Source: Erysipelotrichaceae bacterium
GTDB taxonomy: Bacteria; Bacillota_I; Bacilli_A; Erysipelotrichales; Erysipelotrichaceae
Assembly (NCBI GenBank): GCA_963663995.1
Contig: OY760660.1
Location: forward strand, 1,740,001 to 1,772,000
Length of the DNA: 32,000 bases
Reading direction: 5' to 3'
The position numbers were made by a program, and so were the translations under genes. Of this stretch, positions 16,025 through 28,174 are shown in pieces. Below the pieces are notes generated by a model, which had not been told where the DNA came from, made no database searches, and worked only from the letters and a program-made list of their open reading frames with translations. Positions within the stretch are counted from its first letter, which is position 1; the number at the start of each line of letters is the position of its first letter.

Positions 16025-16050
16025 CCACCTAAATGTAGGTGGTTTTATTT
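16025..16050 (+). terminator. Rho-independent terminator after the SWIM gene
   Basis: CCACCTA / AATG / TAGGTGG followed by TTTTATTT. Confidence 0.8.
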
Positions 16051-16089: not shown

Positions 16090-16118
16090 TTGACAGTCTG
16101 ATTTTTAAACTATATGCT
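16090..16118 (+). promoter_or_regulatory. Sigma-A-type promoter of the 13-gene thiolase-to-maf operon
   Basis: Consensus -35 TTGACA (16090-16095), a 17-nt spacer, then -10 TATGCT (16113-16118). Confidence 0.6.
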
Positions 16119-16127
16119 AGAAATGTA

Positions 16128-16156
16128 AAACATGAACCATGTTTCATGTATGGTTC
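16128..16156. promoter_or_regulatory. Two overlapping inverted repeats just downstream of the -10: a candidate TetR operator or a 5'-UTR structure
   Basis: AAACATG-AAC-CATGTTT (16128-16144) is a perfect 7+3+7 palindrome. GAACCAT-N9-ATGGTTC (16134-16156) shares bases with it. CATG recurs three times with a 7-nt period (16131, 16138, 16145). Confidence 0.45.
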
Positions 16157-16169
16157 GATTGGAGACATA

Positions 16170-17390
16170 ATGAGTAGAGTTTTTATTGTAAGTGCAAAAC
16201 GTTCAGCCATTGGATCTTTCCTTGGTTCTTTAAAAGATGTAAGTGCAGGAGATTTAGGTGCAGCTGTTGTCAAAGCGATTATTGATGAAAGTAAAATTGA
16301 TCCAACTAATTTAGATGAAGTGATTATGGGCAATATATTACCTGCTGGACAAGGACAAGGTGTCGCAAGACAAGTTGCGATAAAAGCAGGTGTACCAGTT
16401 ACAGTCCCTGCCTTTGGCGTAAATATGGTTTGTGGCAGTGGTTTAAAAACAGTTATGTTGGCTTATGTTCAAATTAAATCCGGTTTATCTAATTTAATCA
16501 TTGCTGGTGGCACTGAAGTGATGAGTGCAGCTCCTTTTTTGATGTCAGGATCACTTCGTAACGGTCAAAAAATGGGTGAGTTAAAAGCACAAGATCATAT
16601 GTTAAGAGATGCACTGCTTGATGCATTTGATGATCAACATATGGGAATTACTGCTGAGAATGTAGCGCAAAAATACAATATTACCCGTGAAATGCAAGAT
16701 GCATTCTCATATGAATCTCAACAAAGAGCAATTAAAGCAATTGATAATGGTGCATTTGTAGATGAAATAGTCCCTATTCATATTCCAAGTCGTAAAGGTG
16801 AAATTATCTTTGATCAAGATGAATATCCCAATCGAAATACTAATTTAGAAAAATTAGCTAGTTTAAGACCAGCCTTTAAGAAAGATGGGACTGTTACAGC
16901 TGGTTCTAGTTCAGGTATTAATGATGGAGCAAGTGCAGTGCTTGTCGCGTCTGAAGAAGCCATAAAAAAATACAATCTAACTCCTCTTGTTGAAATCATA
17001 GGTATTGGCGAGGGTGGGGTTGAACCGACTGTCATGGGTCTTGGTCCTACTCCGGCAATACGTATGGCACTTAAACATGCAGACTTAAATCTTAATAAAA
17101 TTGATGTACTGGAATTAAATGAAGCTTTTGCGGCTCAATCCTTAGGTGTTATTCAAGAATTAGTAAATGAGTATGAAGTTACAAAAGATGAACTTCTTCA
17201 AAAGACTAATCCAAATGGTGGTGCAATCGCATTAGGTCATCCTGTAGGTGCATCAGGTAATAGAATCTTTGTCACTTTGATTCATGAAATGAAAAAAGCT
17301 GAACAAAACTATGGTTTAGCGTCGTTATGTATTGGTGGTGGCATGGGAACTGCTGTCATTGTAAAAAATGTAGAAAAAGGAGAATTTTAA
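16170..17390 (+). CDS. Acetyl-CoA C-acetyltransferase (thiolase II)
   Basis: Motifs NMVCGSGLK (nucleophilic Cys), NPNGGAIALGHPVGASG and LCIGGGMGTA. The start is set at ATG 16170 (MSRVFIVSAKRSAIGSF), with the RBS GGAG at 16161-16164. Confidence 0.9.
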   Translation: MSRVFIVSAKRSAIGSFLGSLKDVSAGDLGAAVVKAIIDESKIDPTNLDEVIMGNILPAGQGQGVARQVAIKAGVPVTVPAFGVNMVCGSGLKTVMLAYVQIKSGLSNLIIAGGTEVMSAAPFLMSGSLRNGQKMGELKAQDHMLRDALLDAFDDQHMGITAENVAQKYNITREMQDAFSYESQQRAIKAIDNGAFVDEIVPIHIPSRKGEIIFDQDEYPNRNTNLEKLASLRPAFKKDGTVTAGSSSGINDGASAVLVASEEAIKKYNLTPLVEIIGIGEGGVEPTVMGLGPTPAIRMALKHADLNLNKIDVLELNEAFAAQSLGVIQELVNEYEVTKDELLQKTNPNGGAIALGHPVGASGNRIFVTLIHEMKKAEQNYGLASLCIGGGMGTAVIVKNVEKGEF

Positions 17391-17391
17391 G

Positions 17392-18111
17392 ATGAGATTA
17401 GAAGGTAAAGTAGCGATTGTTACAGGGGGAGCAAAAGGGCTTGGTGAAGCCATGGCAAAACGATTTGCCGATGAAGGAGCTAAAGTTATCGCTGTAGATA
17501 TGAGCGACTTAGCTTATGAATATACAAATGTTGATGGTTATAAGCTAAATGTAACGGATACTGAAGCGTGTCAAAAATTCTTTGATGATGTTACAGAAAA
17601 ATATGGTCGTATTGATGTCTTAGTTAATAATGCTGGAATTACACGTGATTCAACTACTAGAAAAATGACAGATGAAATGTTTGATCTTGTTATATCAGTC
17701 AATCTAAAAGGTGTCTTTAATTTAACACGCCTTGTAGGACCATATATGCAGGATCACAAATCAGGTTCAATTATTAATATCTCATCGATTGTTGGTGTTT
17801 ATGGGAATTATGGTCAAGCTAATTATGCAGCATCGAAAGCAGGTGTTATTGGTATGACTAAGACTTGGGCGAGAGAATTTGCTGCTAAAGGTGGTAATGT
17901 TCGCGTTAATGCAATTGCACCAGGCTATGTTATGACTGATATCTTAAAAACCGTTCCTCAAGATTTACTAGATAAATTCTCAGCTATGACGATGGTCGGG
18001 CGTTTAGGACAACCTGAAGAAATTGCTAATGCTGCATTATTTCTAGCAAGTGAAGAGGCGTCATATGTGACAGGTCATGTACTAGAAGTCAATGGAGGCA
18101 TGCGTCTATGA
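17392..18111 (+). CDS. Short-chain dehydrogenase/reductase, 3-oxoacyl-(ACP/CoA) reductase type (FabG/PhaB-like)
   Basis: Motifs TGGAKGLG, NNAGITRD and YxxxK in NYAASKAG, with PGYVMTD and a C-terminal NGGM. By eye it resembles both FabG and acetoacetyl-CoA reductase PhaB. Confidence 0.85.
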   Translation: MRLEGKVAIVTGGAKGLGEAMAKRFADEGAKVIAVDMSDLAYEYTNVDGYKLNVTDTEACQKFFDDVTEKYGRIDVLVNNAGITRDSTTRKMTDEMFDLVISVNLKGVFNLTRLVGPYMQDHKSGSIINISSIVGVYGNYGQANYAASKAGVIGMTKTWAREFAAKGGNVRVNAIAPGYVMTDILKTVPQDLLDKFSAMTMVGRLGQPEEIANAALFLASEEASYVTGHVLEVNGGMRL

Positions 18112-19004
18112 AACAATATGATGTTCAAACATTAAAACTAAGTAATACTGAAACAATTGCTTATCGTCAATGCGGTAATGCTGATAAATGTTTAGTTTTA
18201 GTCCATGGAAACATGAGTTCATCTGTCCATTATCAAATTGCGATGGAAAAATTTGAAGAAGACTATACTGTCTATGCACTTGATTTAAGAGGTTTTGGTG
18301 ATAGTAGTTTTGTTAATGAAATTACTAGTTTAAAAGACTTTGCTGAAGATGTTGAATTATTCATCGAAGCATTTGATTTAAATAATGTAAATCTTTGTGG
18401 TTGGTCTACGGGAGGTGGAGTTGTTCTAGAAGTTGCCGCTGATATGCCAGAGCGTATAGCTAAAGTATTCTTACTAGATTCAGTTGGTATCAAAGGTTAT
18501 CCTATGTTTAAAAAGGATGATAAAGGGCAAGCCATTTTAACTCAAATGATTCATACAAAAGAGGAAATTGCCTCAGATCCTGTCCAAGTACTTCCTGTTT
18601 TAAATGCTTATGCGAATAAAAACAAAGACATCATGAAAATGATCTGGAATGCAGTGATTTATAATACCCATCAACCTAGTGATGAAGATTACGAATTATA
18701 TTTAGAAGCGATGTTTAAACAAAGAAACTTAGTGGATGTAGACTATGCGCTTGTTCATTTCAATATGACCAATACAAGTAATGGCATTGAAGAAGGTAGT
18801 GGACGTATTGCTTTAATCAAATGTCCGGTAGTAATTATGCATGGTGAAAATGATCTTGTAGTTCCATTTATGTATGCTCAAGAAATGAAAGAAGCATTTA
18901 AAGATCAAGCTACGCTTATCCCTTTAAAAAACGTTGGGCATTCTTGTTTAACAGATGATATCGACTTGTTTGTTTCAACACTTAAGGAACAAATTGCTTT
19001 ATGA
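18108..19004 (+). CDS. Alpha/beta-fold serine hydrolase (substrate unknown)
   Basis: Oxyanion HGN, nucleophile elbow GWSTGG (GxSxG), GENDLVVP (Asp) and VGHSCL (His). ATGA overlaps occur on both sides. Confidence 0.75.
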   Translation: MKQYDVQTLKLSNTETIAYRQCGNADKCLVLVHGNMSSSVHYQIAMEKFEEDYTVYALDLRGFGDSSFVNEITSLKDFAEDVELFIEAFDLNNVNLCGWSTGGGVVLEVAADMPERIAKVFLLDSVGIKGYPMFKKDDKGQAILTQMIHTKEEIASDPVQVLPVLNAYANKNKDIMKMIWNAVIYNTHQPSDEDYELYLEAMFKQRNLVDVDYALVHFNMTNTSNGIEEGSGRIALIKCPVVIMHGENDLVVPFMYAQEMKEAFKDQATLIPLKNVGHSCLTDDIDLFVSTLKEQIAL

Positions 19005-20020
19005 CAAATGAAAATATTGGCATTCGTGGTCTAGGTATTTATTTACCAAAAGGACGCATGAGTGCTGCTGAAATCGCTCAAAAAACAAATGGTGTTTGGG
19101 CAGAATCAGCTGTCATAGAAAAACTTGGAATTATTGAAAAGACAATTGCTTCTGATGAAGATGGCACTCAAGAAATGGGTGCATTGGCTTCACTTGAAGC
19201 GTTGAAGAATGCAGATATTGATCCTTTAGATATTGATGTTATTTTGTGTTTTGGTGAAGAATGGAAAGAATATCCATTAACCACTTCTGCACTTTATATT
19301 CAAGATCGAATTGGCGCAAAAAATGCTTGGGGTGTGGATGTTCAAAACCGTTGTTGCACATCTGTAACAGCTTTGAAAATGGCAAAAGATATGTTAATTG
19401 CTGATGAAGATATTAATACAATCTTAGTTTGTGGAGGCTATCGTAATGGGGACTTTGTTGACTATAGTGATAAACAAATGTCAATGATGTATAACCTTGG
19501 AGCAGGTGGCGGTGCCATTATTCTTCAAAAAGGCATGACTAAAAACTTATTATTAGGGACGCATATTATTTCTGATGGATCATTGGCTCGTACAGCTGGT
19601 GTTGAAATTGGTGGGACTTGTCATCCATTTACAAAAAATAATATTGAAGAAGGTTATAAATCCTTAAGATTATTAGATGCTGAAAAAATGAAGAATCGTT
19701 TAAATGAAGTATCTCAAAATAATTGGATGGAATGTATCGATAAAGCTTTAAAAAAATCGAATCTTGAAAGAAAAGACATTGGTTACTTAGATATTTTACA
19801 TATTAAACGATCAGCTCATATGGGTATGTTAAAGGATTTAGATCTAAATGAAGATCAATCAATTTATCTTGAACACTATGGTCATATTGGACAAGTTGAT
19901 CAAGTTCTATCCTTAGCTTTAGCGCTTGAAAACCAAAAGGTAAAAGATGGAACGGTTGTTTGTATGATTGCGGCTGGTATTGGTTATGTATGGGCAGCCA
20001 ATATTGTTCGTTGGGGTTAA
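19001..20020 (+). CDS. KAS III (FabH)-like thiolase-fold condensing enzyme, atypical
   Basis: At 339 aa. VDVQNRCCTSVTALKMA aligns with the FabH Cys112 region. LDILHIKRS aligns with the His244 region. YGHIGQVD sits where FabH has HGNTSAAS, so His replaces the catalytic Asn. The C-terminus AAGIGYVWAANIVRW is FabH-like. The alignment was made by hand. Confidence 0.65.
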   Translation: MTNENIGIRGLGIYLPKGRMSAAEIAQKTNGVWAESAVIEKLGIIEKTIASDEDGTQEMGALASLEALKNADIDPLDIDVILCFGEEWKEYPLTTSALYIQDRIGAKNAWGVDVQNRCCTSVTALKMAKDMLIADEDINTILVCGGYRNGDFVDYSDKQMSMMYNLGAGGGAIILQKGMTKNLLLGTHIISDGSLARTAGVEIGGTCHPFTKNNIEEGYKSLRLLDAEKMKNRLNEVSQNNWMECIDKALKKSNLERKDIGYLDILHIKRSAHMGMLKDLDLNEDQSIYLEHYGHIGQVDQVLSLALALENQKVKDGTVVCMIAAGIGYVWAANIVRWG

Positions 20021-20023
20021 ATT

Positions 20024-20899
20024 ATGGATATTTTCCTTCAACTTATACTTAGAAGTTTAGAAACAGGTAGTGTTTATGCACTAGCTGCTTTAGGTATCAT
20101 CATTATTTTTAGAACTTCAAATATTACGCACTTTGCGCAAGGTGTAATGGGGATGTTTAATACTTTTGTTGTAACCGTGATGTTTACAAAAGTACATCTA
20201 CCCTTATGGGCTTCCTTGCTAGTTGGTGTAATGTCTGCATTGTTTATTGGTTTCTTAGTGGATTTCCTTATTATTAGACATTCAAAGAAGGTTTCACCCT
20301 TAGCAAAACAAATCATTACATTAGGTTTAATTATGGTTATTTTAGGAATATCACCTCTATTTTTCGGTGTTGACCCACTGAATCTTCCTAAATTTTTCAA
20401 TAGTGGAGATTTTCATATCTTAGGTGCATCAATTTCTTATAATGGTTTGTTTAATATCTCACTTGGCCTTGGAGCGATGGGGATTGCTTTCTATGTCTTG
20501 ATGAATACAAAGTGGGGACTTGCGGTAAGAGTCACCGCATCAAATGAATTTACCGCACGGTTAATGGGTGTTCCAACAAAATCAGTAACTTTAGCTGCAT
20601 GGGGTGTTGCAGGGATCCTTGGTTTATTAGCTGGGGTACTTATTGCGCCAACAACGTCTGTTAATTTTAATTTAATGGATGGGGTTCAAATTAATGCTCT
20701 AGTCGCTTGTGTTCTTGGTGGTTTTCAAACCTTCTATGGACCAGTCTTAGGAGCATATGTTATTGGTATTCTTAAAAACTTATTTGTTTACTATGTGTCA
20801 GATGTTTGGGGTGAGCAATTACTGTATTTATTCATCCTTGTCTTTATTGCCTTTAGACCATATGGATTGATTGGTAAGAAAGTTGTGAAAAAGGTTTAG
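20024..20899 (+). CDS. Branched-chain-amino-acid-type (HAAT family) ABC transporter permease, LivH-like
   Basis: A 291-aa polytopic membrane protein with a LivH-like N-terminus (LQLILRSLETGSVYALAALGIIIIF). It sits next to LivM/G/F-like genes. Confidence 0.85.
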   Translation: MDIFLQLILRSLETGSVYALAALGIIIIFRTSNITHFAQGVMGMFNTFVVTVMFTKVHLPLWASLLVGVMSALFIGFLVDFLIIRHSKKVSPLAKQIITLGLIMVILGISPLFFGVDPLNLPKFFNSGDFHILGASISYNGLFNISLGLGAMGIAFYVLMNTKWGLAVRVTASNEFTARLMGVPTKSVTLAAWGVAGILGLLAGVLIAPTTSVNFNLMDGVQINALVACVLGGFQTFYGPVLGAYVIGILKNLFVYYVSDVWGEQLLYLFILVFIAFRPYGLIGKKVVKKV

Positions 20900-20900
20900 T

Positions 20901-21908
20901 ATGAAAAAAATAAATTTTAAACAACTTGTTCAACATCCCTATTTTGGTTATATCGTATTAGGACTTGGATTTATGATGATTCCAATTCTAGTCAATGCGA
21001 ATATTCTAAGAAGCAATTATGTAGGAATAATGGCATCTGTCATGATTTATTCTATCGCTGCTTTAGGGTTAAATTTATTACTTGGTTACTCAGGTTTAAT
21101 TTCACTTGGAACAGCAGGGTTTATGGGTATGGCAGCTTATATGTCTGCTTATATCACCATGGATCTAGGTCTTCCATTTGAGTTATCTATTGTGTTAGCC
21201 ATTACTGTTCCAACCCTACTAGGTATTTTAGTTGGTTTAGTATCCTTAAGAATAGAAGGCTTGTATTTAGCGATTGCTACTTTAGCAGTTTCAGAAATAC
21301 TACGTAAATCATTTTCTGAATTTGACACGATCACCAATGGTTTCTCTGGCAAATCAATTGGTTGGGTTAAATTCTTAATGGTTGTCAAAACGAACCAGTT
21401 CTTAATGTATGGATTTATTGTTTTAATTCTAATTATCGTTATGATTTTGATTCATAATCTCGTCTCTGGGCAAGCCGGTAGAGCGATGAATGCAATGCGT
21501 GGTAGTGAAGCAGCAGCTCAAGCGATGGGTGTTAATTTAATTCGAACTCGACTAATGGCATTTGCTTTCTCAACGGGTTTAGCATCCCTTGCGGGTGTAC
21601 TCTATATCCATTTTAATCGCTATACCTATCCAGCCTCATGGACGCTAGGTTTATCACTAAACTTAGTAGCCGCAATAGTTATTGGAGGTCTCAGAAATAT
21701 TTATGGAACGATCTTAGGCGTCTTTATAGTCTTTGCACTTCCCGATCTACTACTCAAACAAATTCCATATTTTGGAACCATTCCAAATTTTGCTTATATC
21801 GTAAATGGCATTCTTATCATTCTAGTTATTATGTTTTACCCACTTGGGGCTATCAGCATTGTGAATGATGTTAAAGCATTATTTAAACGAAAGGGGAAAA
21901 ACTCATGA
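20901..21908 (+). CDS. HAAT-family ABC transporter permease, LivM-like
   Basis: A 335-aa polytopic membrane protein. GYSGLISLGTAGFMGMAAY is a typical LivM motif. Confidence 0.85.
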   Translation: MKKINFKQLVQHPYFGYIVLGLGFMMIPILVNANILRSNYVGIMASVMIYSIAALGLNLLLGYSGLISLGTAGFMGMAAYMSAYITMDLGLPFELSIVLAITVPTLLGILVGLVSLRIEGLYLAIATLAVSEILRKSFSEFDTITNGFSGKSIGWVKFLMVVKTNQFLMYGFIVLILIIVMILIHNLVSGQAGRAMNAMRGSEAAAQAMGVNLIRTRLMAFAFSTGLASLAGVLYIHFNRYTYPASWTLGLSLNLVAAIVIGGLRNIYGTILGVFIVFALPDLLLKQIPYFGTIPNFAYIVNGILIILVIMFYPLGAISIVNDVKALFKRKGKNS

Positions 21909-22705
21909 GTTTAGATAAATCTGTATTAACAGTTAGTGAACTAGCGATTAGCTTTGGTGGGATTAAAGCGGTTGATAACTTAAGTTTTGATATTAAAGAA
22001 GGTGAAATATTTGGTTTGATCGGACCAAACGGTGCTGGAAAAACAACCGTATTTAATTGTATTACCCAATTTTATAAACCTGATACAGGATCGATTAAAT
22101 TTATTTCAAAGAATGATCAAGAATTTGAATTAACTCAACTTCAATCACATGAAATTATTCCATTAGGACTTGTTAGAACCTTCCAGAATTTAGAACTTAT
22201 TCGTGAACTGACAATCTTAGATAATGTCATGATTGGTGCACACGTTGATTTTAAAAGTAATGTCTTTGAGCAAACGTTCCAAACCAAAAAAGCTCGTCTT
22301 GAAGAAAAAGCGATACGTAAAGAAGCCATCAAGATCTTAGACTTTGTTGGCATAAGTGATCGTATGTATCAACTTGTTGGAGGACAACCCTATGGTGTCT
22401 TAAAGAAAGTTGAATTAGCACGCACACTCATGTGTCATCCAAAACTCATTATTCTAGACGAACCGGCGGCTGGTCTAAATGATACAGAATCAATGGATTT
22501 GGCTGCAGATATTAAAACGATTAGAGATGAATTTAATTGCAGTATCTTACTGGTTGAACATGATATGAGACTTGTTATGGAAGTCTGTGATCGAATCTGC
22601 GCCATAAACTTTGGTCACATGATGGCGATTGGTCAACCAAAAGAAATTCAAAAAAATAAGGATGTACAAGCAGCATACCTTGGCGCGGTGGAGGAAACAT
22701 CATGA
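21905..22705 (+). CDS. HAAT-family ABC transporter ATP-binding protein, LivG-like
   Basis: Walker A GPNGAGKTT, Walker B LIILDEPAAG, a LivG-type signature region QPYGVLKKVELAR, and the C-terminal AYLG. Confidence 0.9.
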   Translation: MSLDKSVLTVSELAISFGGIKAVDNLSFDIKEGEIFGLIGPNGAGKTTVFNCITQFYKPDTGSIKFISKNDQEFELTQLQSHEIIPLGLVRTFQNLELIRELTILDNVMIGAHVDFKSNVFEQTFQTKKARLEEKAIRKEAIKILDFVGISDRMYQLVGGQPYGVLKKVELARTLMCHPKLIILDEPAAGLNDTESMDLAADIKTIRDEFNCSILLVEHDMRLVMEVCDRICAINFGHMMAIGQPKEIQKNKDVQAAYLGAVEETS

Positions 22706-23418
22706 GTACATTACTCGAGATTAATCAATTGGTCGTTCGCTATGGTGCAATTGAAGCTGTTAAAGGCATTAATTTAAAGGTTGAAGAAGGATCTGTTGTG
22801 GCAATTCTTGGCGCAAATGGTTCTGGTAAGACAAGTACACTTCGAACCATCTCTGGTTTAATTGAACCAGCGGGTGGAACCATACAGTTTTTAAATCAAA
22901 ACATTGAAAACATGGAAGCTGAAAAAATCACTAAACTAGGGATTTCTCAGAGTCCAGAAGGGAGGCAGGTTTTCAGGGATTTAAGTGTAGAAGAGAATTT
23001 GAAAGTAGGAGCCTTTGTTTTAAAAGACAAACAGGAAATTAAGAGAAATTTTGAAAAAGTCTATCGTATGTTTCCTGTTTTACAAGAAAGAAAAAAACAA
23101 ATTGCATCTACATTGTCGGGTGGTGAACAACAGATGTTGGCGATCGCTAGATCACTCATGAGTTCTCCAAAATTACTCTTATTGGATGAACCATCACTCG
23201 GTTTAGCACCACTAATTGTTCGCGATATTATGCAAATCATTTCAAAAATTAAAGAGGAAGGTACAACTGTTATTATTGTTGAACAAAATGCAGCTCAAAC
23301 ATTAAAAATTGCAGATTATGCCTATGTCTTAGAATTAGGAACCATTCATACAGAAGGTTTAGCTTCTGACTTATTGAATGATCCTAATTTGATTCAAGCT
23401 TACTTAGGTAAGCACTAA
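22702..23418 (+). CDS. HAAT-family ABC transporter ATP-binding protein, LivF-like
   Basis: Walker A GANGSGKTS, signature LSGGEQQML, Walker B LLLLDEPS, and the C-terminal AYLG. Confidence 0.9.
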   Translation: MSTLLEINQLVVRYGAIEAVKGINLKVEEGSVVAILGANGSGKTSTLRTISGLIEPAGGTIQFLNQNIENMEAEKITKLGISQSPEGRQVFRDLSVEENLKVGAFVLKDKQEIKRNFEKVYRMFPVLQERKKQIASTLSGGEQQMLAIARSLMSSPKLLLLDEPSLGLAPLIVRDIMQIISKIKEEGTTVIIVEQNAAQTLKIADYAYVLELGTIHTEGLASDLLNDPNLIQAYLGKH

Positions 23419-23460
23419 ATTAACCTAATAATGCATGAAGCATTGTTAATAGGAGGAAAA

Positions 23461-24687
23461 ATGAAAAAGTTTTTAGTTTTATTAGTTAGTCTAGTACTAG
23501 TACTAGGACTCGTCGGTTGTTCACCAGCTGAAGAGGAAGAAGTCGCTGCTCAAGGTGTTACTGACACAGAAGTTCTAATCGCAAACTGTGCTGCAACATC
23601 AGGTGCATTTGCACCTGTTGGCGTTCCATTTATCGCAGGTATTCAAGCTTATCTCGATATGGTGAATGCTGATGGTGGTATTGATGGTCGTACGATTACG
23701 TTCTTACATCAAGATGATGAATTTGATCCTGTAAAAGGGAAAGCATGTGTTGCTTCTATGATTAATGATGAACAAGTATTTGCACTTGTTGGTCACTTTG
23801 GTACACCAGTTGTTGGTGCTACTTTAGAAGATATTAAAGAAGCAGGAATTCCAGCTGTTTATTTCGCAACAGGTATTGGTCAACTTTATGATGATCAAGC
23901 AACTGATGAAGAAATGAATCGTAATATTATGCCAGTTCAACCAATTTATAAGACAGAAGGTCAAATCATGGTTGCTCGTGCAGTTGGTACATTTGGAGCT
24001 GAAAAAATTGGTGTTATCTATACCAATGATGATGCTGGTAAAGACTTATTATTTGGTGCTGAAAAACAAGCAACTGAATTAGGTGTAGAACTTGTATCTG
24101 CACAAGTAGAACCAGGTGCTACAGATGTTAGTGCTGCTGTTACAAAGATTAAAGATGAAAATGTAGACTTTATCGTAGGTGCTGCTATTCAAGCAACGAT
24201 TCCTACAATTATTAAAGAATTAGCAAATCAAGCCGTTAATAAAGACGTGATTACAACTTATGTTAACGTATCACCAGCGATTGCTTCAACATTCATTGCA
24301 GACATTCAAAGTAAATTTGATGTTTATGGTAATGGTTGGGTAGCGATTGATGCTGATCATCAAGCAGCGATTGACGAATATGTCGCAAACATCGATGCTG
24401 AATATGCAGGTAATGCCTTTGCGATGACTGGCTGGATTGCAGCATCTTTCTTTGTTGAAGGCTTAAGCAGAGTTGAAGGAACAGTTACATGGGCTAAATT
24501 TATTGATGCGATGGAATCTGCACCAATTAACAACCCATTTGGTGGCGTCATTGACTTTGGTAATGGAGCTCGTTTAGGTACACAAGAAATGAATCTTTCT
24601 AAAGCTGTTGTCGGTGCATCTGCAACTGAAGGCACTTGGGAAGGTGTTGAACCTCTAGCTTCAATTACTTCTATTTTAGGTGAATAA
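23461..24687 (+). CDS. Lipoprotein substrate-binding protein of the Liv-type ABC importer (type I periplasmic-binding fold; ligand unknown)
   Basis: Signal peptide plus lipobox MKKFLVLLVSLVLVLGLVGC, followed by an acidic linker (SPAEEEE). About 400 aa with LivJ/K-like composition. The start is set at ATG 23461, with the RBS AGGAGG. Confidence 0.8.
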   Translation: MKKFLVLLVSLVLVLGLVGCSPAEEEEVAAQGVTDTEVLIANCAATSGAFAPVGVPFIAGIQAYLDMVNADGGIDGRTITFLHQDDEFDPVKGKACVASMINDEQVFALVGHFGTPVVGATLEDIKEAGIPAVYFATGIGQLYDDQATDEEMNRNIMPVQPIYKTEGQIMVARAVGTFGAEKIGVIYTNDDAGKDLLFGAEKQATELGVELVSAQVEPGATDVSAAVTKIKDENVDFIVGAAIQATIPTIIKELANQAVNKDVITTYVNVSPAIASTFIADIQSKFDVYGNGWVAIDADHQAAIDEYVANIDAEYAGNAFAMTGWIAASFFVEGLSRVEGTVTWAKFIDAMESAPINNPFGGVIDFGNGARLGTQEMNLSKAVVGASATEGTWEGVEPLASITSILGE

Positions 24688-24698
24688 TAATAACTAAA

Positions 24699-24717
24699 AG
24701 GGGGAGTCTCTCCCCCT
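24699..24717 (+). other. GC-rich intra-operon hairpin after the binding-protein gene
   Basis: AGGGGGAG / TCT / CTCCCCCT (8-bp stem) with no clean U-tract after it (ACCTTTCT). It lies 12 nt after the stop codon and 30 nt before the next ATG. Confidence 0.4.
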
Positions 24718-24747
24718 ACCTTTCTAACAATTATCTGGAGGATTCAA

Positions 24748-26055
24748 ATGGAATACCAAAATAAAGTGAAAACAGCACAAGAAGCTGTGCAACTTGTTAA
24801 ATCAAATATGAACATTGTGACAGGACTAGGAGCTGCAGAAGGTCGTTTATTCTTAAGTGAACTACACACAGTCGCAGATCATGTAAAAAATGTGACCGTA
24901 ACCAACTGCTTACCAATGTCGGATCAGTCTTTTATGAAAGAAGAATATAAATCTTCATTCTTTGTTGATGGCTGGTTTTATTCACCAGTACTAAGAAAAG
25001 CACATAAAAATGGCAATATTTCATTTATTCCTAATCATTTACATTTAGCTGGGATTAAACGTCTAGCTCATGTACATACAGATATTTATGTTGGAGCTTG
25101 TTCAATGCCTGATAAACATGGTTACGTATCGCTTTCCTTAAGTAATACTTATGAAAAGCGCGTCATTGAAGAAGCAGATTGTGTCATATTAGAAATTAAT
25201 CCAAACATGCCTTATACCTATGGGGATGTAGAATTAGCACTTTCAGAAATCGATATCATTATTGAAGCGGATTATATGCCACCAGCACTACCTGATGTAG
25301 AATCAAATGAAAAAGATGAAAAAATAGGTCAATATATAGCATCCTATATAAAAGATGGTGATTGTATTCAACTTGGTATTGGTGGAATTCCTAACGCAGT
25401 TGCCTCATTTTTATCAGACAAAAAAGATTTGGGTGTTCATACTGAAATGTTGACATCTGGAATTGTGGATTTAGTTAAAAAAGGTGTTATCACTGGCAAA
25501 ATGAAACAAGAACAACGCGGGAAAATGGTTTGTACTTTTGCTTTAGGAAATCAAGCGCTTTATGATTTTGTTGACCATAATCCTGCAGTTGTTTTTATGG
25601 ATGGTGCGATTGTGAATGATCCACACATTATTGGCTTAAATGATAATCAAATATCAATTAACACAACAATGGAAATTGATTTAACCGGTCAATGCTGTTC
25701 TGAGTCCATTGGATCACTACAATTTTCAGGAACGGGTGGTCAAGCTGATACAGCTATAGGTGCGCAAAATTCTAAAAATGGTAAATCATTCATTGCTTTA
25801 TATTCAACTGCGATGGTGAGAAATAAAGAAACGGGCGAAAAGGAAGAAATCTCAAAAATTGTTCCCCAACTTAAACAAGGGGCAGCAGTTACTCTAAGTC
25901 GAAATGACGTAGATTATGTTGTGACCGAATATGGTGTAGCACATTTAAAAGGTACGAATATTCGTGAACGTGTTGAGTTGCTTATCGGAATCGCTCATCC
26001 CAAATATCGTGATGAGTTAAGACAACAAGCCGTTGACCTAGGGATCATTATCTAA
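24748..26055 (+). CDS. Acetyl-CoA hydrolase/transferase family protein (4-hydroxybutyrate / butyryl-CoA:acetate CoA-transferase type)
   Basis: At 435 aa, with GIGGIPNAV, VHTEMLTSG (region of the catalytic Glu) and SGTGGQADTA motifs. The RBS GGAGG lies upstream. Confidence 0.8.
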   Translation: MEYQNKVKTAQEAVQLVKSNMNIVTGLGAAEGRLFLSELHTVADHVKNVTVTNCLPMSDQSFMKEEYKSSFFVDGWFYSPVLRKAHKNGNISFIPNHLHLAGIKRLAHVHTDIYVGACSMPDKHGYVSLSLSNTYEKRVIEEADCVILEINPNMPYTYGDVELALSEIDIIIEADYMPPALPDVESNEKDEKIGQYIASYIKDGDCIQLGIGGIPNAVASFLSDKKDLGVHTEMLTSGIVDLVKKGVITGKMKQEQRGKMVCTFALGNQALYDFVDHNPAVVFMDGAIVNDPHIIGLNDNQISINTTMEIDLTGQCCSESIGSLQFSGTGGQADTAIGAQNSKNGKSFIALYSTAMVRNKETGEKEEISKIVPQLKQGAAVTLSRNDVDYVVTEYGVAHLKGTNIRERVELLIGIAHPKYRDELRQQAVDLGIII

Positions 26056-26870
26056 TGGCAACGCTCAAGTTTTCGGATTATGAAATCTACTATGAAAGAT
26101 ATGGACAAGGGAAACCCATTTTAATCTTGAATGGAATTATGATGTCAACCAAGAGTTGGCAAGCATTCATTGAAACATTTAGTCAACATAATGAGTTGAT
26201 CTTAATGGATTTACTTGATCAAGGACAATCATCTAAGTTAAATGATATTGAATATAATCAAAGCATTCAGGTTGAGGCTGTAAAGCATTTGATTGAAAAA
26301 TGTCAGTTAAACAATTTAGCTCTTTTTGGGATATCTTATGGTGGAGAAGTGGCGATACAATTAGCTGCTAGATATCCAGAATTAGTAGAAAGATGTCTGT
26401 TTTTTAACACAGCTGCTTATACAAGTCCTTGGTTAAAAGAAATTGGTGAAGCATGGAATATGGCCGCTCATAATCCACAAAATTATTATTCGACAACGAT
26501 ACCTGTCATTTATAGTCCAAAATTTTATGAGAGAAGAATCGATTGGATGGAAAATCGAAAGAAGATACTTTTAAATGTATTTTCTGATCCAGTTTTTATT
26601 GAAGCGATGATTCGTTTAACCAATAGTGCAAATTCATATGATGAACGAAAAAATTTATCAAAGATCACATGTCCAAGTTTAGTGGTGGGATGCGAGTTTG
26701 ATATGATTACGCCCTTTCACAATCAAGTAGATTTAGCTAAAGCTCTTCCTAATGCTAATCTTATTTATATACCTGACTCTGGTCATGCATCTATGTATGA
26801 AAAACCAGTCTTATTTACAAGTTTAATCCTAGGTTTTGTCAATAATTCCTTGACAGATGATGTAATATAA
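26055..26870 (+). CDS. Alpha/beta-fold serine hydrolase, second copy, not a close paralogue of the first by eye
   Basis: Nucleophile elbow GISYGG (GxSxG), CEFDMITP (Asp) and SGHASMYEKP (His). The ATG overlaps the TAA of the CoA-transferase by 1 nt. Confidence 0.75.
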   Translation: MATLKFSDYEIYYERYGQGKPILILNGIMMSTKSWQAFIETFSQHNELILMDLLDQGQSSKLNDIEYNQSIQVEAVKHLIEKCQLNNLALFGISYGGEVAIQLAARYPELVERCLFFNTAAYTSPWLKEIGEAWNMAAHNPQNYYSTTIPVIYSPKFYERRIDWMENRKKILLNVFSDPVFIEAMIRLTNSANSYDERKNLSKITCPSLVVGCEFDMITPFHNQVDLAKALPNANLIYIPDSGHASMYEKPVLFTSLILGFVNNSLTDDVI

Positions 26871-26872
26871 AC

Positions 26873-27490
26873 ATGGAAGAAAAGACCATGGAAAATAAAA
26901 ACACTCTCGTTAATAAACCAAAAACTAAAAGAGGTCAAGCAACTTTAAATCGTATCTGTGAAGCAGCTGAACAAGTCATTTATAAAAAAGGCTATCATGC
27001 AACTTCTATCAATGATATTACTTATCGAGCTAAAGTTGCACCAGGAACTTTTTATATTTACTTCACTGATAAAATTAGTTTATATAAATATCTATTATCT
27101 TCTTATAGTCATGAAATAAGACAACATATCGCAATATGTGTTAAAGATTGTAAGACGCGTAAAGAAGCTGAAAGAGAAGGTTTACGTGCCTATCTTGAAT
27201 TTATTAATCAAAACAAACATATCTATAATATTATTTGGGAATCACTCTATATTGATAAGCAATTATTTATTGAGTATTACACTGACTTTGCAAGATATTA
27301 TATTAAACACATTTTACAAGCACAAGAACTTGGTGAGATGACAGAACATAATCCAACCGTTGTTGCTTATATGTTGATGGGTATTTCAAACTTCATTGGT
27401 TTGAATTATGTAATGTTCTCTAACACAGATAATTTTGATAACATTGTGGATGATGTTATTGATATCTTAGATAAAGGATTATTTAAATGA
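26873..27490 (+). CDS. TetR/AcrR-family transcriptional regulator
   Basis: N-terminal HTH YHATSINDITYRAKVAPGTFYIYFTDK. Length 205 aa. The start may instead be the Met 5 codons downstream (26888). Confidence 0.85.
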   Translation: MEEKTMENKNTLVNKPKTKRGQATLNRICEAAEQVIYKKGYHATSINDITYRAKVAPGTFYIYFTDKISLYKYLLSSYSHEIRQHIAICVKDCKTRKEAEREGLRAYLEFINQNKHIYNIIWESLYIDKQLFIEYYTDFARYYIKHILQAQELGEMTEHNPTVVAYMLMGISNFIGLNYVMFSNTDNFDNIVDDVIDILDKGLFK

Positions 27491-28056
27491 ATTTAAAAAT
27501 TGTACTCGCATCACAAAGCCCACGTCGTCGTGAGCTTTTCACTCGTTTAGGCTATCCATTTTCCACAGACTCAGCCGATATTGATGAAACACTAGATTTA
27601 AATTTAAGTGTACAGGATGCTGTAGAAGCTTTAGCTTTAAGAAAAGCAAAAGCTGTAGAAGAAAAACACCCAGAATCAATTATTGTGACAGCTGATACAG
27701 TGGTTGTTTTAAATGAAAAAATTTATGGAAAAGCGGCTGATTTTGATGAAGCATTTACGATGTTAAAAGAACTGAGTGGACATACACATCAAGTCATGAC
27801 TTCACTGTGCTTAATGTATAAAGACAAACATCATACTTTCACATCTATAACTGATGTTGAATTCTATGAATTAGAGGATGAAAATATCAAATCTTATATT
27901 GAAACAGGTGAAGCATATGACAAAGCTGGCGCTTATGGAATACAAGATTTGGGATCATTATTCATCAAAGGAATTAAAGGTGATTATTATACCGTTATGG
28001 GTTTGCCTGTAGCTTTATTAAAACGTGAACTTGATCAGTTTATTCAAAGCATATAA
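27487..28056 (+). CDS. maf: Maf-like nucleoside-triphosphate pyrophosphatase
   Basis: Motifs LASQSPRRRELF, TADTVV and KAGAYGIQ. Length 189 aa. There is an ATGA overlap with the TetR gene. Confidence 0.85.
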   Translation: MNLKIVLASQSPRRRELFTRLGYPFSTDSADIDETLDLNLSVQDAVEALALRKAKAVEEKHPESIIVTADTVVVLNEKIYGKAADFDEAFTMLKELSGHTHQVMTSLCLMYKDKHHTFTSITDVEFYELEDENIKSYIETGEAYDKAGAYGIQDLGSLFIKGIKGDYYTVMGLPVALLKRELDQFIQSI

Positions 28057-28100: not shown

Positions 28101-28174
28101 GCCGACATAGTTCAACGGTAAAATAGAGCAATGGTAATGCTCAGTTCCGAGTTCGATTCTCGGTGTCGGCACCA
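28101..28174 (+). tRNA. tRNA-Thr, anticodon GGU, with encoded CCA
   Basis: Hand-folded cloverleaf. Acceptor stem GCCGACA / TGTCGGC. Anticodon stem GAGCA / TGCTC with loop AT-GGT-AA. T arm CCGAG-TTCGATT-CTCGG. Discriminator A plus CCA. The D stem is weak (3 bp plus a mismatch) with a GG-containing loop, and the variable region is 4 nt. Confidence 0.85.

What the first reader, a model, noticed from the sequence alone, without database searches (positions are those of the whole stretch)
16090..28056. A 13-gene operon combining thiolase, keto-reductase, two hydrolases, an atypical KAS III, a Liv-type ABC importer, a CoA-transferase, TetR and Maf: an orphan import-and-acyl-CoA pathway
Seen: one consensus promoter sits at 16090. 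Thirteen ORFs follow, all on one strand, with gaps or overlaps of -4 to +3 nt. The only exceptions are two short gaps of 42 and 60 nt around the binding-protein gene. There is no terminator until the tRNA promoter at 28060.

The gene content is: thiolase II, a FabG/PhaB-like SDR, a GxSxG hydrolase, a FabH-like enzyme, LivH/M/G/F-like components plus a lipoprotein binding protein, a family-I CoA-transferase, a second GxSxG hydrolase, TetR and Maf.

Established: Liv-type (HAAT) importers carry amino acids but also aromatic, dicarboxylic and other organic acids in catabolic clusters (for example the Rhodopseudomonas pim and cou clusters). CoA-transferase, 3-hydroxyacyl dehydrogenase and thiolase together form a minimal route from a 3-hydroxy acid to acetyl-CoA.

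Inference: acyl-CoA dehydrogenase, enoyl-CoA hydratase, ACP, malonyl transferase and acyl-CoA ligase genes are all absent. This argues against ordinary beta-oxidation and against fatty-acid synthesis. I see three competing readings:
- (H1) uptake and thiolytic catabolism of a 3-hydroxy or 3-oxo acid or its esters or oligomers (for example 3-hydroxybutyrate-type compounds), with the hydrolases as esterases;
- (H2) a Claisen-condensation pathway that builds a small beta-keto or beta-hydroxy product from an imported acid;
- (H3) a fortuitous fusion of a BCAA importer with acyl-CoA genes.
I cannot match the combination to any characterised operon I know.
Basis: partly seen in the sequence, partly recalled or inferred. 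Interest (0 to 1): 0.65.

Follow-up and report, generated by a model that had tools for sequence, protein, structure and literature searches.

The report
Hydroxybutyrate-ester import and breakdown operon
A small-genome, Acholeplasma-like bacterium that cannot make the storage polyester PHB carries a widely conserved operon that most likely imports PHB breakdown products (3-hydroxybutyrate esters) and ferments them to acetyl-CoA, and the operon includes an uncharacterised FabH-like enzyme that cannot be working as a normal fatty-acid condensing enzyme.

Summary
There are 13 co-directional, tightly packed genes (16170-28056) behind one promoter, bounded by terminators at 16023 and 28185.

Gene 3 is a Bacillus thuringiensis-type PHB depolymerase (NF050089, 381 bits against a cut-off of 300; 46% identical to PDB 8YNV). 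Gene 4 belongs to the uncharacterised family NF005308. It has a KAS III fold, but FabH's catalytic Asn is replaced by His295-x4-Asp300, the signature of KSIII-like acyltransferases such as CerJ and ChlB3.

- **Fortuitous fusion (H3) is refuted.** The gene set recurs in 76 loci across Bacilli and Clostridia, even when the gene order is rearranged.
- **The FabH-like gene and PhaZ travel together.** In 299 sampled genomes they co-occur 44/45, and none of the carriers has a PHA synthase.
- **Relatives add a full 3-hydroxybutyryl-CoA fermentation set.** They add ackA, a PhaJ-like MaoC hydratase and bcd-etfBA next to the cluster.
- **The FabH-like enzyme is malonyl-independent.** Eight carrier genomes lack both FabD and any carboxyltransferase, which disfavours H2.

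Best reading (about 0.55): uptake of 3-hydroxybutyrate esters or oligomers, followed by cytoplasmic ester cleavage, CoA transfer, oxidation and thiolysis. The role of the FabH-like enzyme is only inferred; it may cleave the esters with CoA. The substrate is not demonstrated. I found no published description of this cluster.

The parts
16023..16044 (+). Terminator-like hairpin closing the upstream gene; this is the 5' boundary of the operon
   Evidence: 9-bp stem followed by a T-rich tail.
16090..16118 (+). Sigma-70-type promoter, TTGACA-17-TATGCT
   Evidence: 10 of 12 matches, the best + strand hit in the region; sequence read.
16128..16156 (+). Two overlapping inverted repeats, AAACATG-AAC-CATGTTT and GAACCAT-N9-ATGGTTC. 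They lie between the -10 box and the ribosome-binding site and are a candidate TetR operator.
   Evidence: unique in the 1.95-Mb genome at up to 1 mismatch. GAAYCAT half-sites are enriched upstream of related clusters (21 seen, 6.3 expected), but they are not universal.
16170..17390 (+). Thiolase II (acetyl-CoA C-acetyltransferase type); the only thiolase in the genome
   Evidence: TIGR01930, 464.6 bits against a cut-off of 240.55; single copy in the genome.
17392..18111 (+). FabG/PhaB-type SDR, probably an (R)-3-hydroxybutyryl-CoA dehydrogenase / acetoacetyl-CoA reductase
   Evidence: FabG 275-278 bits and AcAcCoA_reduct 253.7 bits, both just below their cut-offs. The housekeeping FabG lies elsewhere in the genome (47% identity).
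18108..19004 (+). B. thuringiensis-type short-chain PHA depolymerase homologue (alpha/beta hydrolase). Triad Ser100 (GWSTG), Asp249, His278. No signal peptide.
   Evidence: NF050089, 381.5 bits against a cut-off of 300; PDB 8YNV, E 2e-85, 46% identity over 287 residues, triad aligned.
19001..20020 (+). KAS III-fold protein of the uncharacterised family NF005308/PRK06840. Active-site residues Cys118, His267 and His295-x4-Asp300, with no FabH Asn. Probably a malonyl-independent acyltransferase.
   Evidence: 469 bits against a cut-off of 315; FabH model 117.7 against 292. (Cys118, His295 and Asp300 invariant down to 23% identity). (AF2 pLDDT 96; FabH fold, TM 0.84-0.88). (family retained in genomes without FabD or a carboxyltransferase).
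20024..20899 (+). LivH-type ABC permease
   Evidence: PF02653.
20901..21908 (+). LivM-type ABC permease
   Evidence: PF02653.
21905..22705 (+). LivG-type ABC ATPase
   Evidence: PF00005 plus PF12399.
22702..23418 (+). LivF-type ABC ATPase
23461..24687 (+). Lipoprotein substrate-binding protein (Peripla_BP_6); not a LivJ/K orthologue
   Evidence: (LivJ-type model 42 bits against a cut-off of 477); the nearest solved structure is 4N03, a fatty-acid-binding protein (19% identity); lipobox and ribosome-binding site.
24699..24717 (+). G+C-rich hairpin (GGGGGAG-tct-CTCCCCC) after the binding-protein gene, with no T run. Probably an mRNA-stability or partial-termination element.
24748..26055 (+). Family-I CoA-transferase of the 4-hydroxybutyrate CoA-transferase type; the only copy in the genome
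   Evidence: (PDB 3EH7 E 1e-100; 3GK7 E 2e-94).
26055..26870 (+). Second cytoplasmic alpha/beta hydrolase (GISYG). It overlaps the CoA-transferase stop codon by 1 nt.
   Evidence: (PDB 4Q3L, MGS-M2, E 9e-76).
26873..27490 (+). TetR-family regulator, distantly like the acyl-CoA-sensing FadR/FasR; conserved with the cluster
27487..28056 (+). Maf nucleotide pyrophosphatase. It is co-transcribed, but it accompanies the cluster only in close relatives, so it is probably a passenger.
   Evidence: (12 of 37 fully flanked loci).
28101..28203 (+). tRNA-Thr(GGT) followed by the first strong terminator (28185-28203); this is the 3' boundary

Best explanation
The operon is a TetR-controlled scavenging pathway for (R)-3-hydroxybutyrate units that arrive from outside the cell as esters or oligomers, which are breakdown products of other organisms' PHB. 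Proposed steps:
1. The lipoprotein binding protein and the LivHMGF-type ABC system import the compound.
2. Two cytoplasmic serine esterases cleave the ester bonds: a B. thuringiensis-type PhaZ and a hydrolase like the solved protein MGS-M2.
3. The 4-hydroxybutyrate-type CoA-transferase activates free 3-hydroxybutyrate at the expense of acetyl-CoA.
4. The FabG/PhaB-type SDR oxidises (R)-3-hydroxybutyryl-CoA to acetoacetyl-CoA.
5. The thiolase yields two acetyl-CoA, a net gain of one, which can give ATP through acetate kinase encoded elsewhere in the genome.

**Shown here:** the gene identities, the conservation of the set, the absence of PHA synthase, and the malonyl-independence of the FabH-like family.

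**Inferred:** the substrate, the direction of flux, and the role of the FabH-like enzyme. From its Cys / His-x4-Asp active site, I propose that this enzyme is an acyltransferase that moves hydroxyacyl groups between the ester and CoA.
For: **1. Enzyme identities.**
- PhaZ scores above NCBIfam's equivalog cut-off and is 46% identical to the solved B. thuringiensis enzyme, with the Ser-Asp-His triad aligned (organism named in PMC12278694).
- Hydrolase 2 matches PDB 4Q3L (MGS-M2) at E 9e-76.
- The CoA-transferase matches 4-hydroxybutyrate CoA-transferases at E 1e-100.
- Neither hydrolase has a signal peptide, so their ester substrates must be met inside the cell.

**2. No endogenous polymer.**
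- This complete genome has no class III/IV or class I/II PHA synthase.
- None of 43 other carrier genomes has one either.
- This genome has no Esterase_PHB family member.

**3. Conserved as a unit.**
- Of 37 fully flanked loci, livG/F is present in 35, the CoA-transferase in 32, and hydrolase 2 and TetR in 31 each.
- Acholeplasma hippikon keeps the same set in a different order and ends it with acetate kinase.
- In 299 sampled genomes the FabH-like family is present in 44 and PhaZ in 45, with 44 shared (Fisher p 4e-52; the genomes are phylogenetically non-independent, spanning 20 genera).

**4. Neighbours in relatives complete a 3-hydroxybutyryl-CoA fermentation to acetate plus butyrate.**
- A PhaJ-like MaoC hydratase occurs in 17 loci, acetate kinase in 15 and an acyl-CoA dehydrogenase with EtfB/EtfA in 7 or more.
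- In a 1.2-Mb genome they form one array: maoC-acad-etfBA-thl-sdr-kas3-livHMGF-sbp-coaT-hyd2-phaZ.

**5. Pathway enzymes are dedicated to the operon.** The thiolase and the CoA-transferase are each the only copy in the genome.

**6. Published precedent (my own knowledge, not checked here).** Anaerobic 3-hydroxybutyrate/PHB fermentation through CoA transfer, 3-hydroxybutyryl-CoA dehydrogenase and thiolase was described for Ilyobacter delafieldii.
Against: - No substrate has been tested, and no solved binding protein is close enough to predict the ligand. The nearest is a fatty-acid binder at 19% identity.
- PhaZ-family membership rests on one characterised enzyme, and its deletion in B. thuringiensis only delays PHB loss (PMC4908106).
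- 4-Hydroxybutyrate-type CoA-transferases are not known to me to prefer 3-hydroxybutyrate.
- The pathway as drawn does not need the FabH-like enzyme, yet that is the most conserved protein of the cluster (64-81% identity across classes).
- This genome lacks the reductive branch (no ACAD, Etf or MaoC) and has only a weak Pta-family hit. Redox balance and ATP yield here are therefore unexplained.
- LivHMGF-type systems are not known to carry oligo-esters.
Confidence: 0.55

Rival explanations
1. The architecture and logic are the same (import, ester cleavage, CoA transfer, oxidation, thiolysis), but the natural substrate is a different short-chain ester or hydroxy/oxo acid. Candidates are other hydroxyalkanoate esters, 4-hydroxybutyrate-containing esters, or acyl esters released from lipids. 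On this reading the PhaZ-like enzyme is a general short-chain esterase.
For: - The CoA-transferase is closest to 4-hydroxybutyrate enzymes.
- The binding protein's nearest structure binds a fatty acid.
- Some genomes carry three to five hydrolase paralogues in the cluster, which suggests a mixed range of substrates.
- Gut Oscillospiraceae versions replace PhaZ with a hydrolase that is only 28-29% identical.
Against: - PhaZ scores above its equivalog cut-off.
- The SDR is of the R-specific FabG/PhaB type.
- The PhaJ-like hydratase, Bcd-EtfAB and thiolase in relatives all converge on C4 (R)-3-hydroxyacyl-CoA chemistry.
Confidence: 0.2
2. The system imports free 3-hydroxybutyrate or acetoacetate monomers only. 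The hydrolases and the FabH-like protein then serve a side reaction, for example thioester proofreading.
For: CoA-transferase, SDR and thiolase are sufficient for monomer catabolism. KSIII-like acyltransferases can hydrolyse thioesters when no acceptor is present (PMC9573744).
Against: - The FabH-like gene and PhaZ co-occur 44/45.
- At least two cytoplasmic esterases are kept even in 1.1-1.2-Mb genomes.
- The minimal variant is hydrolase, FabH-like gene and ABC importer with no CoA-transferase at all.
Confidence: 0.1
3. This is a storage or biosynthetic reading. Thiolase and reductase make (R)-3-hydroxybutyryl-CoA. The FabH-like Cys-His-Asp enzyme then acts as a non-canonical ester-forming synthase for oligo- or poly-3-hydroxybutyrate, and PhaZ mobilises the product. 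The importer and CoA-transferase feed in exogenous acids.
For: - The gene order thl-sdr-phaZ-kas3 mimics phaA-phaB-phaZ-phaC.
- CerJ-type KSIII enzymes form esters from CoA thioesters (PMC9573744).
- Carrier genomes lack a canonical PHA synthase.
Against: - The cluster is always tied to a binding-protein-dependent importer and a TetR regulator.
- Its added neighbours in relatives are acetate kinase and Bcd-EtfAB, which are fermentation genes.
- I did not look for phasin or granule-protein genes, so their presence is untested.
- Storage polyester is not known to me in these wall-less lineages.
Confidence: 0.08
4. The FabH-like enzyme condenses an imported, CoA-activated acid with a malonyl unit, either to build a beta-keto product or to prime fatty-acid synthesis.
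For: The protein has a KAS III fold and is closest overall to true FabH proteins. It retains Cys118 and His267, and DpsC, which has a similar active site, still condenses (PMC9573744).
Against: - FabH's Asn is replaced in every family member.
- The FabH model scores 117.7 bits against a cut-off of 292.
- A true FabH and a FASII cluster exist elsewhere in this genome.
- Eight carrier genomes (97-99% complete) lack FabD, and all eight lack any carboxyltransferase, whereas four FabD-positive controls have AccD/AccA. The family is therefore kept where no malonyl donor can be made.
Confidence: 0.03
5. This is the first reader's H3: a chance juxtaposition of a branched-chain amino-acid importer with unrelated acyl-CoA genes.
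For: The permease and ATPase genes belong to the LivHMGF family.
Against: - The importer travels with the FabH-like gene in 35 of 37 fully flanked loci across classes, and it survives rearrangements.
- The binding protein scores 42 bits against a LivJ-type cut-off of 477.
- A second Liv-type system exists elsewhere in the genome.
Confidence: 0.02

Closest known systems
Bacillus thuringiensis intracellular PHB depolymerase PhaZ (PDB 8YNV; NCBIfam NF050089)
   Same: Gene 3 scores above the family's equivalog cut-off. It is 46% identical over 287 residues. The lipase box (GWSTG here, GWSMG in the B. thuringiensis enzyme) and the Asp and His of the triad align. Like the B. thuringiensis enzyme, it is cytoplasmic.
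   Different: B. thuringiensis makes PHB with PhaC and uses PhaZ on its own granules. This genome and 43 other carriers have no PHA synthase. Here the gene is embedded with an importer, a CoA-transferase and a FabH-like gene, so the substrate must come from outside the cell.
KSIII-like acyltransferases CerJ, ChlB3 and DpsC of Streptomyces polyketide pathways
   Same: Both have a KAS III fold, with a Cys nucleophile and a His-x4-Asp pair in place of FabH's Asn. The residues are Cys118/His295/Asp300 here, Cys116/His295 plus an Asp about five residues on (printed as D301 in PMC9573744) in CerJ, and Cys113/His296/Asp301 in ChlB3. These three residues are the only invariant catalytic positions across the wider family. 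His267 also matches DpsC's second His.
   Different: Overall sequence is closer to ordinary FabH (217 bits) than to DpsC, CerJ or ChlB3 (110-122 bits). The context is a catabolic operon in Firmicutes, with no ACP or PKS genes nearby. No member of NF005308 has been characterised.
Anaerobic PHB / 3-hydroxybutyrate fermentation of Ilyobacter delafieldii (my own knowledge; enzymology only)
   Same: The route is the same: CoA transfer to 3-hydroxybutyrate, then 3-hydroxybutyryl-CoA dehydrogenase, then thiolase. A crotonyl-CoA/butyryl-CoA branch balances redox, and relatives of this cluster encode that branch (MaoC, Bcd-EtfAB).
   Different: As far as I know, no gene cluster, importer or FabH-like enzyme was described for Ilyobacter. 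Ilyobacter secretes a depolymerase, whereas this genome has no Esterase_PHB member.
LivHMGF-type (HAAT) importers inside acyl-CoA catabolic clusters, such as the Rhodopseudomonas palustris pim and cou clusters
   Same: A Peripla_BP_6 binding protein, two permeases and two ATPases are co-encoded with CoA-level catabolic enzymes and a repressor. The binding protein is not an amino-acid binder by family score.
   Different: The enzyme set differs: there is no ligase and no full beta-oxidation, but there are esterases and a KSIII-like protein. The host phylum also differs.
E. coli atoDAEB (acetoacetate / short-chain acid utilisation)
   Same: A CoA-transferase and a thiolase are combined with an uptake system to turn a C4 oxo acid into acetyl-CoA.
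   Different: In ato the CoA-transferase belongs to a different family (two-subunit AtoDA) and the transporter is a secondary carrier. The ato operon has no esterases, SDR or KSIII-like gene.
OleABCD olefin/beta-lactone pathway
   Same: A KAS III-fold protein sits next to an alpha/beta hydrolase and an SDR.
   Different: No OleA, OleB or OleD model appears among the family hits listed, where only the best 25 are shown for the SDR and hydrolase 1. OleC is absent. The hydrolase is a PhaZ equivalog. OleA structures rank well below FabH structures in the fold search.

Membership tests
NF050089 intracellular short-chain-length PHA depolymerase (B. thuringiensis PhaZ type) | Score above the curated equivalog cut-off (300 bits) | tested here: met
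   381.5 bits; 381.1 bits in the genome search.
NF050089 intracellular short-chain-length PHA depolymerase (B. thuringiensis PhaZ type) | Ser in the lipase box, plus the Asp and His of the triad, aligned to the solved enzyme | tested here: met
   GWS100TG aligns with GWSMG; Asp249 and His278 are also aligned to 8YNV (Ser102 named in PMC7236355).
NF050089 intracellular short-chain-length PHA depolymerase (B. thuringiensis PhaZ type) | Acts on the cell's own PHB granules, which requires a PHA synthase in the same genome | tested here: not met
   No TIGR01836 or PF07167 match in this complete genome or in 43 other carriers.
FabH / KAS III (TIGR00747) | Score above the family cut-off (292.1 bits) | tested here: not met
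   117.7 bits. A separate true FabH lies at genome position 1697276-1698220.
FabH / KAS III (TIGR00747) | Cys-His-Asn catalytic triad | tested here: not met
   The Asn position is His295 in all 72 close family members and in 40 wider relatives.
FabH / KAS III (TIGR00747) | Needs a malonyl donor (malonyl-ACP or malonyl-CoA) | tested here: not met
   Eight carrier genomes lack FabD, and all eight lack any PF01039 carboxyltransferase, whereas four controls have one.
NF005308 / PRK06840 (annotated '3-oxoacyl-ACP synthase'; no characterised member known to me) | Score above the curated cut-off (315 bits) | tested here: met
   469.3 bits; 44 of 299 sampled genomes have a member, all above the cut-off.
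KSIII-like acyltransferases (CerJ / ChlB3 / DpsC type) | Nucleophile plus a His-x4-Asp pair replacing FabH's Asn | tested here: met
   Cys118, His295 and Asp300 are invariant in alignment A1; the residue numbers for CerJ and ChlB3 come from PMC9573744. I did not align directly to the CerJ sequence; the match to 3S3L is collinear, 6-337 against 5-338.
KSIII-like acyltransferases (CerJ / ChlB3 / DpsC type) | Closer in sequence or fold to these enzymes than to FabH | tested here: not met
   The family profile scores FabH at 217 bits, and DpsC, CerJ and ChlB3 at 122, 121 and 110 bits. The top 43 fold-search matches are FabH, BioZ and PqsD structures.
KSIII-like acyltransferases (CerJ / ChlB3 / DpsC type) | Demonstrated acyl transfer to O or S acceptors without condensation | not testable with these tools
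   This needs an enzyme assay.
LivJ/LivK branched-chain amino-acid binding proteins (NF011933) | Score above the family cut-off (477 bits) | tested here: not met
   42.2 bits; LivJ/LivK structures match at E 6e-8 or weaker; the nearest fold is the fatty-acid binder 4N03.
HAAT-type ABC importer (LivHMGF architecture) | Two BPD_transp_2 permeases, two ATPases (one with the BCA_ABC_TP_C tail) and a Peripla_BP_6 binding protein | tested here: met
4-hydroxybutyrate-type family-I CoA-transferases (PF02550 + PF13336) | Both domains present, with close similarity to solved members | tested here: met
   3EH7 at E 1e-100 and 3GK7 at E 2e-94. The butyryl-CoA:acetate equivalog TIGR03948 is not met (298 bits against 674.8).
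Beta-ketoadipate lower pathway (PcaD enol-lactonase, TIGR02427) | Score above the cut-off (255.85 bits) | tested here: not met
   Hydrolase 2 scores 88.6 bits and hydrolase 1 scores 57 bits.
OleABCD | OleA-type KAS III together with the OleC AMP-ligase | tested here: not met
   No Ole model appears among the listed family hits, and no AMP-ligase gene is present in the operon.

The most novel reading that the evidence does not exclude
The NF005308 FabH-fold enzyme would be a new kind of depolymerising acyltransferase. It would take the 3-hydroxybutyryl unit of an imported oligo-ester onto Cys118 and pass it to CoA (ester thiolysis), giving 3-hydroxybutyryl-CoA directly and conserving the ester-bond energy. 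Together with the Liv-type importer, this would define a previously undescribed, widespread anaerobic route by which small-genome Firmicutes live on other bacteria's PHB. The reverse reaction, non-canonical oligoester synthesis, is a variant of the same idea.
Probability: 0.3. Interest if true: 0.75.

Novelty: new variant of a known kind. Interest (0 to 1): 0.6.

Why it matters
- **Carbon flow.** PHB is one of the most abundant bacterial storage polymers and a commercial bioplastic, but the genes for its anaerobic consumption are poorly known. This cluster is present in about 15% of a 299-genome sample of the host's phylum, and also in gut and digester Clostridia. It is retained even in 1.1-1.2-Mb genomes, which suggests it is a main energy pathway there.
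- **Annotation.** The cluster assigns a testable role to a large family that is currently annotated '3-oxoacyl-ACP synthase'. That annotation is very probably wrong, because the family persists where no malonyl donor exists.
- **Enzymology.** If the family cleaves esters with CoA, it would be a new enzyme activity and potentially useful for bioplastic recycling.
- **Testability.** Three cultured carriers (Acholeplasma hippikon, Alkalibacterium spp., Papillibacter cinnamivorans) make direct experiments possible.

Tried and rejected
No Ole family hits were listed, there is no OleC, and the hydrolase is a PhaZ equivalog.
- **Beta-ketoadipate lower pathway** (PcaD/PcaIJ/PcaF): rejected, because all scores are far below the cut-offs.
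- **Ordinary FabH or fatty-acid priming:** rejected.
- **Branched-chain amino-acid importer fusion:** rejected.
- **Malonate decarboxylation** via CoA transfer plus a decarboxylating KAS: considered and dropped. It gives no net acetyl-CoA and leaves the esterases unexplained.
- **Operator conservation:** the exact palindrome is not conserved in relatives, and only a partial enrichment of GAAYCAT half-sites was seen. This is left unresolved.
- **Context of more distant family members:** the one representative I tried (P0125) was not on record.
- **Literature:**
  - Nothing was found for MGS-M2.
  - The original PhaZ paper (PMC1636284) is not held.
  - Three topic searches found no description of this cluster.
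- **Structure-based ligand guess for the binding protein:** uninformative, because the nearest structures are only 14-22% identical and bind a mix of ligands.

Full report
**Observation**

The window carries 13 co-directional ORFs between 16146 and 28056.
- thiolase;
- FabG/PhaB-type SDR;
- alpha/beta hydrolase;
- KAS III-like protein;
- LivH, LivM, LivG and LivF;
- Peripla_BP_6 binding protein;
- AcetylCoA_hydro-type CoA-transferase;
- second alpha/beta hydrolase;
- TetR;
- Maf.

Gene junctions run from -4 to +3 nt, except for 42 nt before and 60 nt after the binding-protein gene.

A TTGACA-17-TATGCT promoter sits at 16090-16118. A terminator-like hairpin at 16023-16044 closes the upstream gene. 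The first convincing downstream terminator (28185-28203) follows tRNA-Thr at 28101-28174.

Small corrections:
- The thiolase starts at 16170, which has a GGAG site.
- The binding protein starts at 23461, with an AGGAGG site and the lipobox LVGC.
- A G+C-rich hairpin without a T run lies at 24699-24717.

**Host**

The window lies in a complete 1.95-Mb single-contig genome. Its nearest named relatives are 'Erysipelotrichaceae bacterium' MAGs and Acholeplasma hippikon.

**What the individual genes are**

- *Hydrolase 1* is an equivalog-level member of NF050089, the B. thuringiensis-type intracellular short-chain PHA depolymerase. It scores 381.5 bits against a cut-off of 300. It is 46% identical over 287 residues to PDB 8YNV, with Ser100 (GWSTG), Asp249 and His278 aligned. 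8YNV is the B. thuringiensis enzyme (PMC12278694), and its Ser102 lies in GWSMG (PMC7236355).
- *Hydrolase 2* matches PDB 4Q3L, a solved alpha/beta-fold protein named MGS-M2, at E 9e-76.
- Neither hydrolase has a signal peptide.
- *The CoA-transferase* matches 4-hydroxybutyrate CoA-transferases at E 1e-100.
- *The binding protein* is not a LivJ/K orthologue (42 bits against 477). Its nearest solved relative by sequence and by fold is a fatty-acid-binding protein at 19% identity.
- *The thiolase and the CoA-transferase* are each the only copy in the genome. A true FabH, FabG, FabD and AccD/AccA lie together about 60 kb away.

**The FabH-like protein**

It belongs to NF005308/PRK06840 (469 bits against a cut-off of 315) and not to FabH (117.7 against 292). 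Alignment to FabH structures shows that the Cys (Cys118) and the first His (His267) are kept, but the catalytic Asn is His295.

This holds in 72 family members from the related loci, where 107 of 339 columns are nearly invariant. In a wider alignment reaching down to 23% identity, the only invariant residues are P16, C118, G294, H295, D300 and G328.

A Cys plus a His-x4-Asp pair is the active site reported for the KSIII-like acyltransferases ChlB3 (C113/H296/D301) and CerJ (C116/H295 plus an Asp about five residues on, printed as D301 in the paper). DpsC additionally uses a second His that corresponds to His267 (PMC9573744).

By overall sequence and by fold, the protein is nevertheless nearest to ordinary FabH proteins:
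- The family profile scores FabH at 217 bits, against 110-122 bits for DpsC, CerJ and ChlB3.
- The AF2 model has pLDDT 96, and its best fold matches are FabH structures at TM 0.84-0.88 and about 22% identity.

I therefore claim that it works like these acyltransferases, not that it belongs to their clade.

**Conservation**

A genome-collection scan seeded with this protein returned 76 loci. They come from Erysipelotrichaceae-labelled MAGs, Tissierellia, Alkalibacterium, Oscillospiraceae, Papillibacter and others. Mapping the 13 proteins onto these loci shows a recurrent set.

Among 37 loci with enough flanking sequence, the counts are:

| Gene | Loci (of 37) |
|---|---|
| livG / livF | 35 |
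| CoA-transferase | 32 |
| hydrolase 2 | 31 |
| TetR | 31 |
| binding protein | 30 |
| PhaZ | 26 |
| thiolase | 25 |
| SDR | 22 |
| Maf | 12 |

Because the seed was the FabH-like gene, its own universality is by construction. Three independent checks remove that bias:
- Acholeplasma hippikon has the same set in a different order (tetR divergent; livHMGF-sbp-thl-sdr-kas3-coaT-hyd2-hydrolase), ending in acetate kinase.
- In an even sample of 299 genomes of the host's phylum, the FabH-like family is present in 44 and the PhaZ family (E <= 1e-60) in 45, with 44 shared (Fisher p 4e-52). The genomes are not phylogenetically independent; the carriers span 20 of 135 genera.
- A minimal variant exists: hydrolase, FabH-like gene, livHMGF and a divergent binding protein, with no CoA-transferase.

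This refutes the fortuitous-fusion reading. It also shows that Maf is a passenger.

**Which way the pathway runs**

- No carrier genome has a PHA synthase. This genome has neither TIGR01836 nor PF07167, and 0 of 43 other carriers has either. The PhaZ homologue therefore has no endogenous polymer to act on.
- The genome has no Esterase_PHB member.
- The extra genes that recur beside the cluster in relatives are:
  - a 141-residue MaoC (PhaJ-like) hydratase, in 17 loci;
  - acetate kinase, in 15 loci;
  - an acyl-CoA dehydrogenase with EtfB and EtfA, in 7 or more loci;
  - Hbd, seen once.
- In six Erysipelotrichaceae-type loci, ackA-maoC-acad-etfB-etfA is transcribed divergently from the thiolase promoter region.
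- In a 1.2-Mb genome the genes form a single array: maoC-acad-etfBA-thl-sdr-kas3-livHMGF-sbp-coaT-hyd2-phaZ.

Together these encode the complete dismutation of (R)-3-hydroxybutyryl-CoA. The oxidative branch runs to acetyl-CoA and acetate with ATP. The reductive branch runs through crotonyl-CoA to butyryl-CoA. This is the scheme known (from my own knowledge) for anaerobic PHB/3-hydroxybutyrate fermentation.

This window's genome has only the oxidative branch. ACAD, Etf, MaoC and Hbd are absent and AckA lies elsewhere. Only a weak Pta-family hit was found.

**Exclusion of the condensing-enzyme reading**

Eight of the 44 carrier genomes (97-99% complete, 1.1-1.7 Mb) lack FabD. All eight also lack any carboxyltransferase (PF01039), whereas four FabD-positive carriers, including this genome, have the AccD/AccA pair.

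Those eight genomes still carry the FabH-like gene at more than 445 bits, and five of the six regions I fetched hold the whole cluster or most of it. A family kept where no malonyl-CoA or malonyl-ACP can be made cannot be a decarboxylative condensing enzyme.

What remains is acyl transfer or a non-decarboxylative Claisen-type reaction. The Cys / His-x4-Asp site favours acyl transfer.

**Proposed mechanism**

1. Import of 3-hydroxybutyrate esters or oligomers (inferred).
2. Cytoplasmic ester cleavage by two serine hydrolases (inferred from homology).
3. CoA transfer from acetyl-CoA (inferred).
4. R-specific oxidation by the SDR, then thiolysis (inferred from family membership).
5. Repression by TetR at the overlapping palindromes at 16128-16156. 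These are unique in the genome, and relatives share only part of the motif.

For the FabH-like enzyme I propose CoA-dependent transacylation of the ester, which would save the bond energy. This is an inference from active-site signature and context only. An earlier first-stage note on another genome reached the same idea, but that is not independent evidence.

**Novelty and limits**

The individual chemistries are known, so this is a new variant of a known kind of system and not a new category. The following were not found in three literature searches:
- the cluster as a unit;
- its Liv-type importer;
- its distribution in PHA-synthase-free, small-genome Firmicutes;
- the catabolic, malonyl-independent KSIII-like family.

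Limits:
- The binding-protein ligand is unpredictable from structure.
- The evidence on the PhaZ family rests on a single characterised enzyme, whose knock-out phenotype is mild (PMC4908106).

Noticed in passing
window 24699-24717: A G+C-rich hairpin (GGGGGAG-tct-CTCCCCC) lies directly after the binding-protein gene and has no T run. It may stabilise the upstream part of the transcript or partly terminate it, which would raise binding-protein expression relative to the downstream genes.
   Followed up: partly
window 16128-16156: Two overlapping inverted repeats lie between the -10 box and the ribosome-binding site. The 17-mer is unique in the 1.95-Mb genome at up to 1 mismatch. Related clusters show only partial enrichment of GAAYCAT half-sites upstream (21 seen, 6.3 expected).
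   Followed up: partly
L013 2109-6783, and the same in L014, L017, L021, L022 and L070: A divergent operon, ackA-maoC(PhaJ-like)-acad-etfB-etfA, starts within about 340 nt or less of the thiolase gene. The two operons probably share one regulatory region.
   Followed up: partly
L084 (G088:C2:750000-769900): A 1.2-Mb genome keeps the cluster with five alpha/beta hydrolase genes in a row: two like hydrolase 2 and three PhaZ-like. This suggests specialisation for different ester substrates.
   Followed up: no
L028 182-1438: A Mutator-family transposase lies next to the cluster. In addition, the FabH-like protein is 64-68% identical between Bacilli and Clostridia. Both points hint that the cluster moves horizontally.
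   Followed up: no
L013 18654-19136, and 11 other loci: A CoaD-like cytidylyltransferase gene (probably phosphopantetheine adenylyltransferase) follows tetR in 12 loci. It could be a link to CoA supply, or it could be coincidence.
   Followed up: no
genome G150 (C14:68681-69697 and C34:5389-6132): One genome carries two copies of the FabH-like gene. The second copy is truncated at a contig end.
   Followed up: no
window 28457-29929: A GH1 (phospho-)beta-glucosidase gene follows tRNA-Thr after a gap of about 250 nt. It is unrelated to the operon.
   Followed up: no
L056 (CAVBUY010000011.1): This contig is labelled Alistipes shahii, but it carries the minimal Firmicutes-type cluster seen in 1.1-Mb Bacilli genomes. 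It is probably mis-binned.
   Followed up: no
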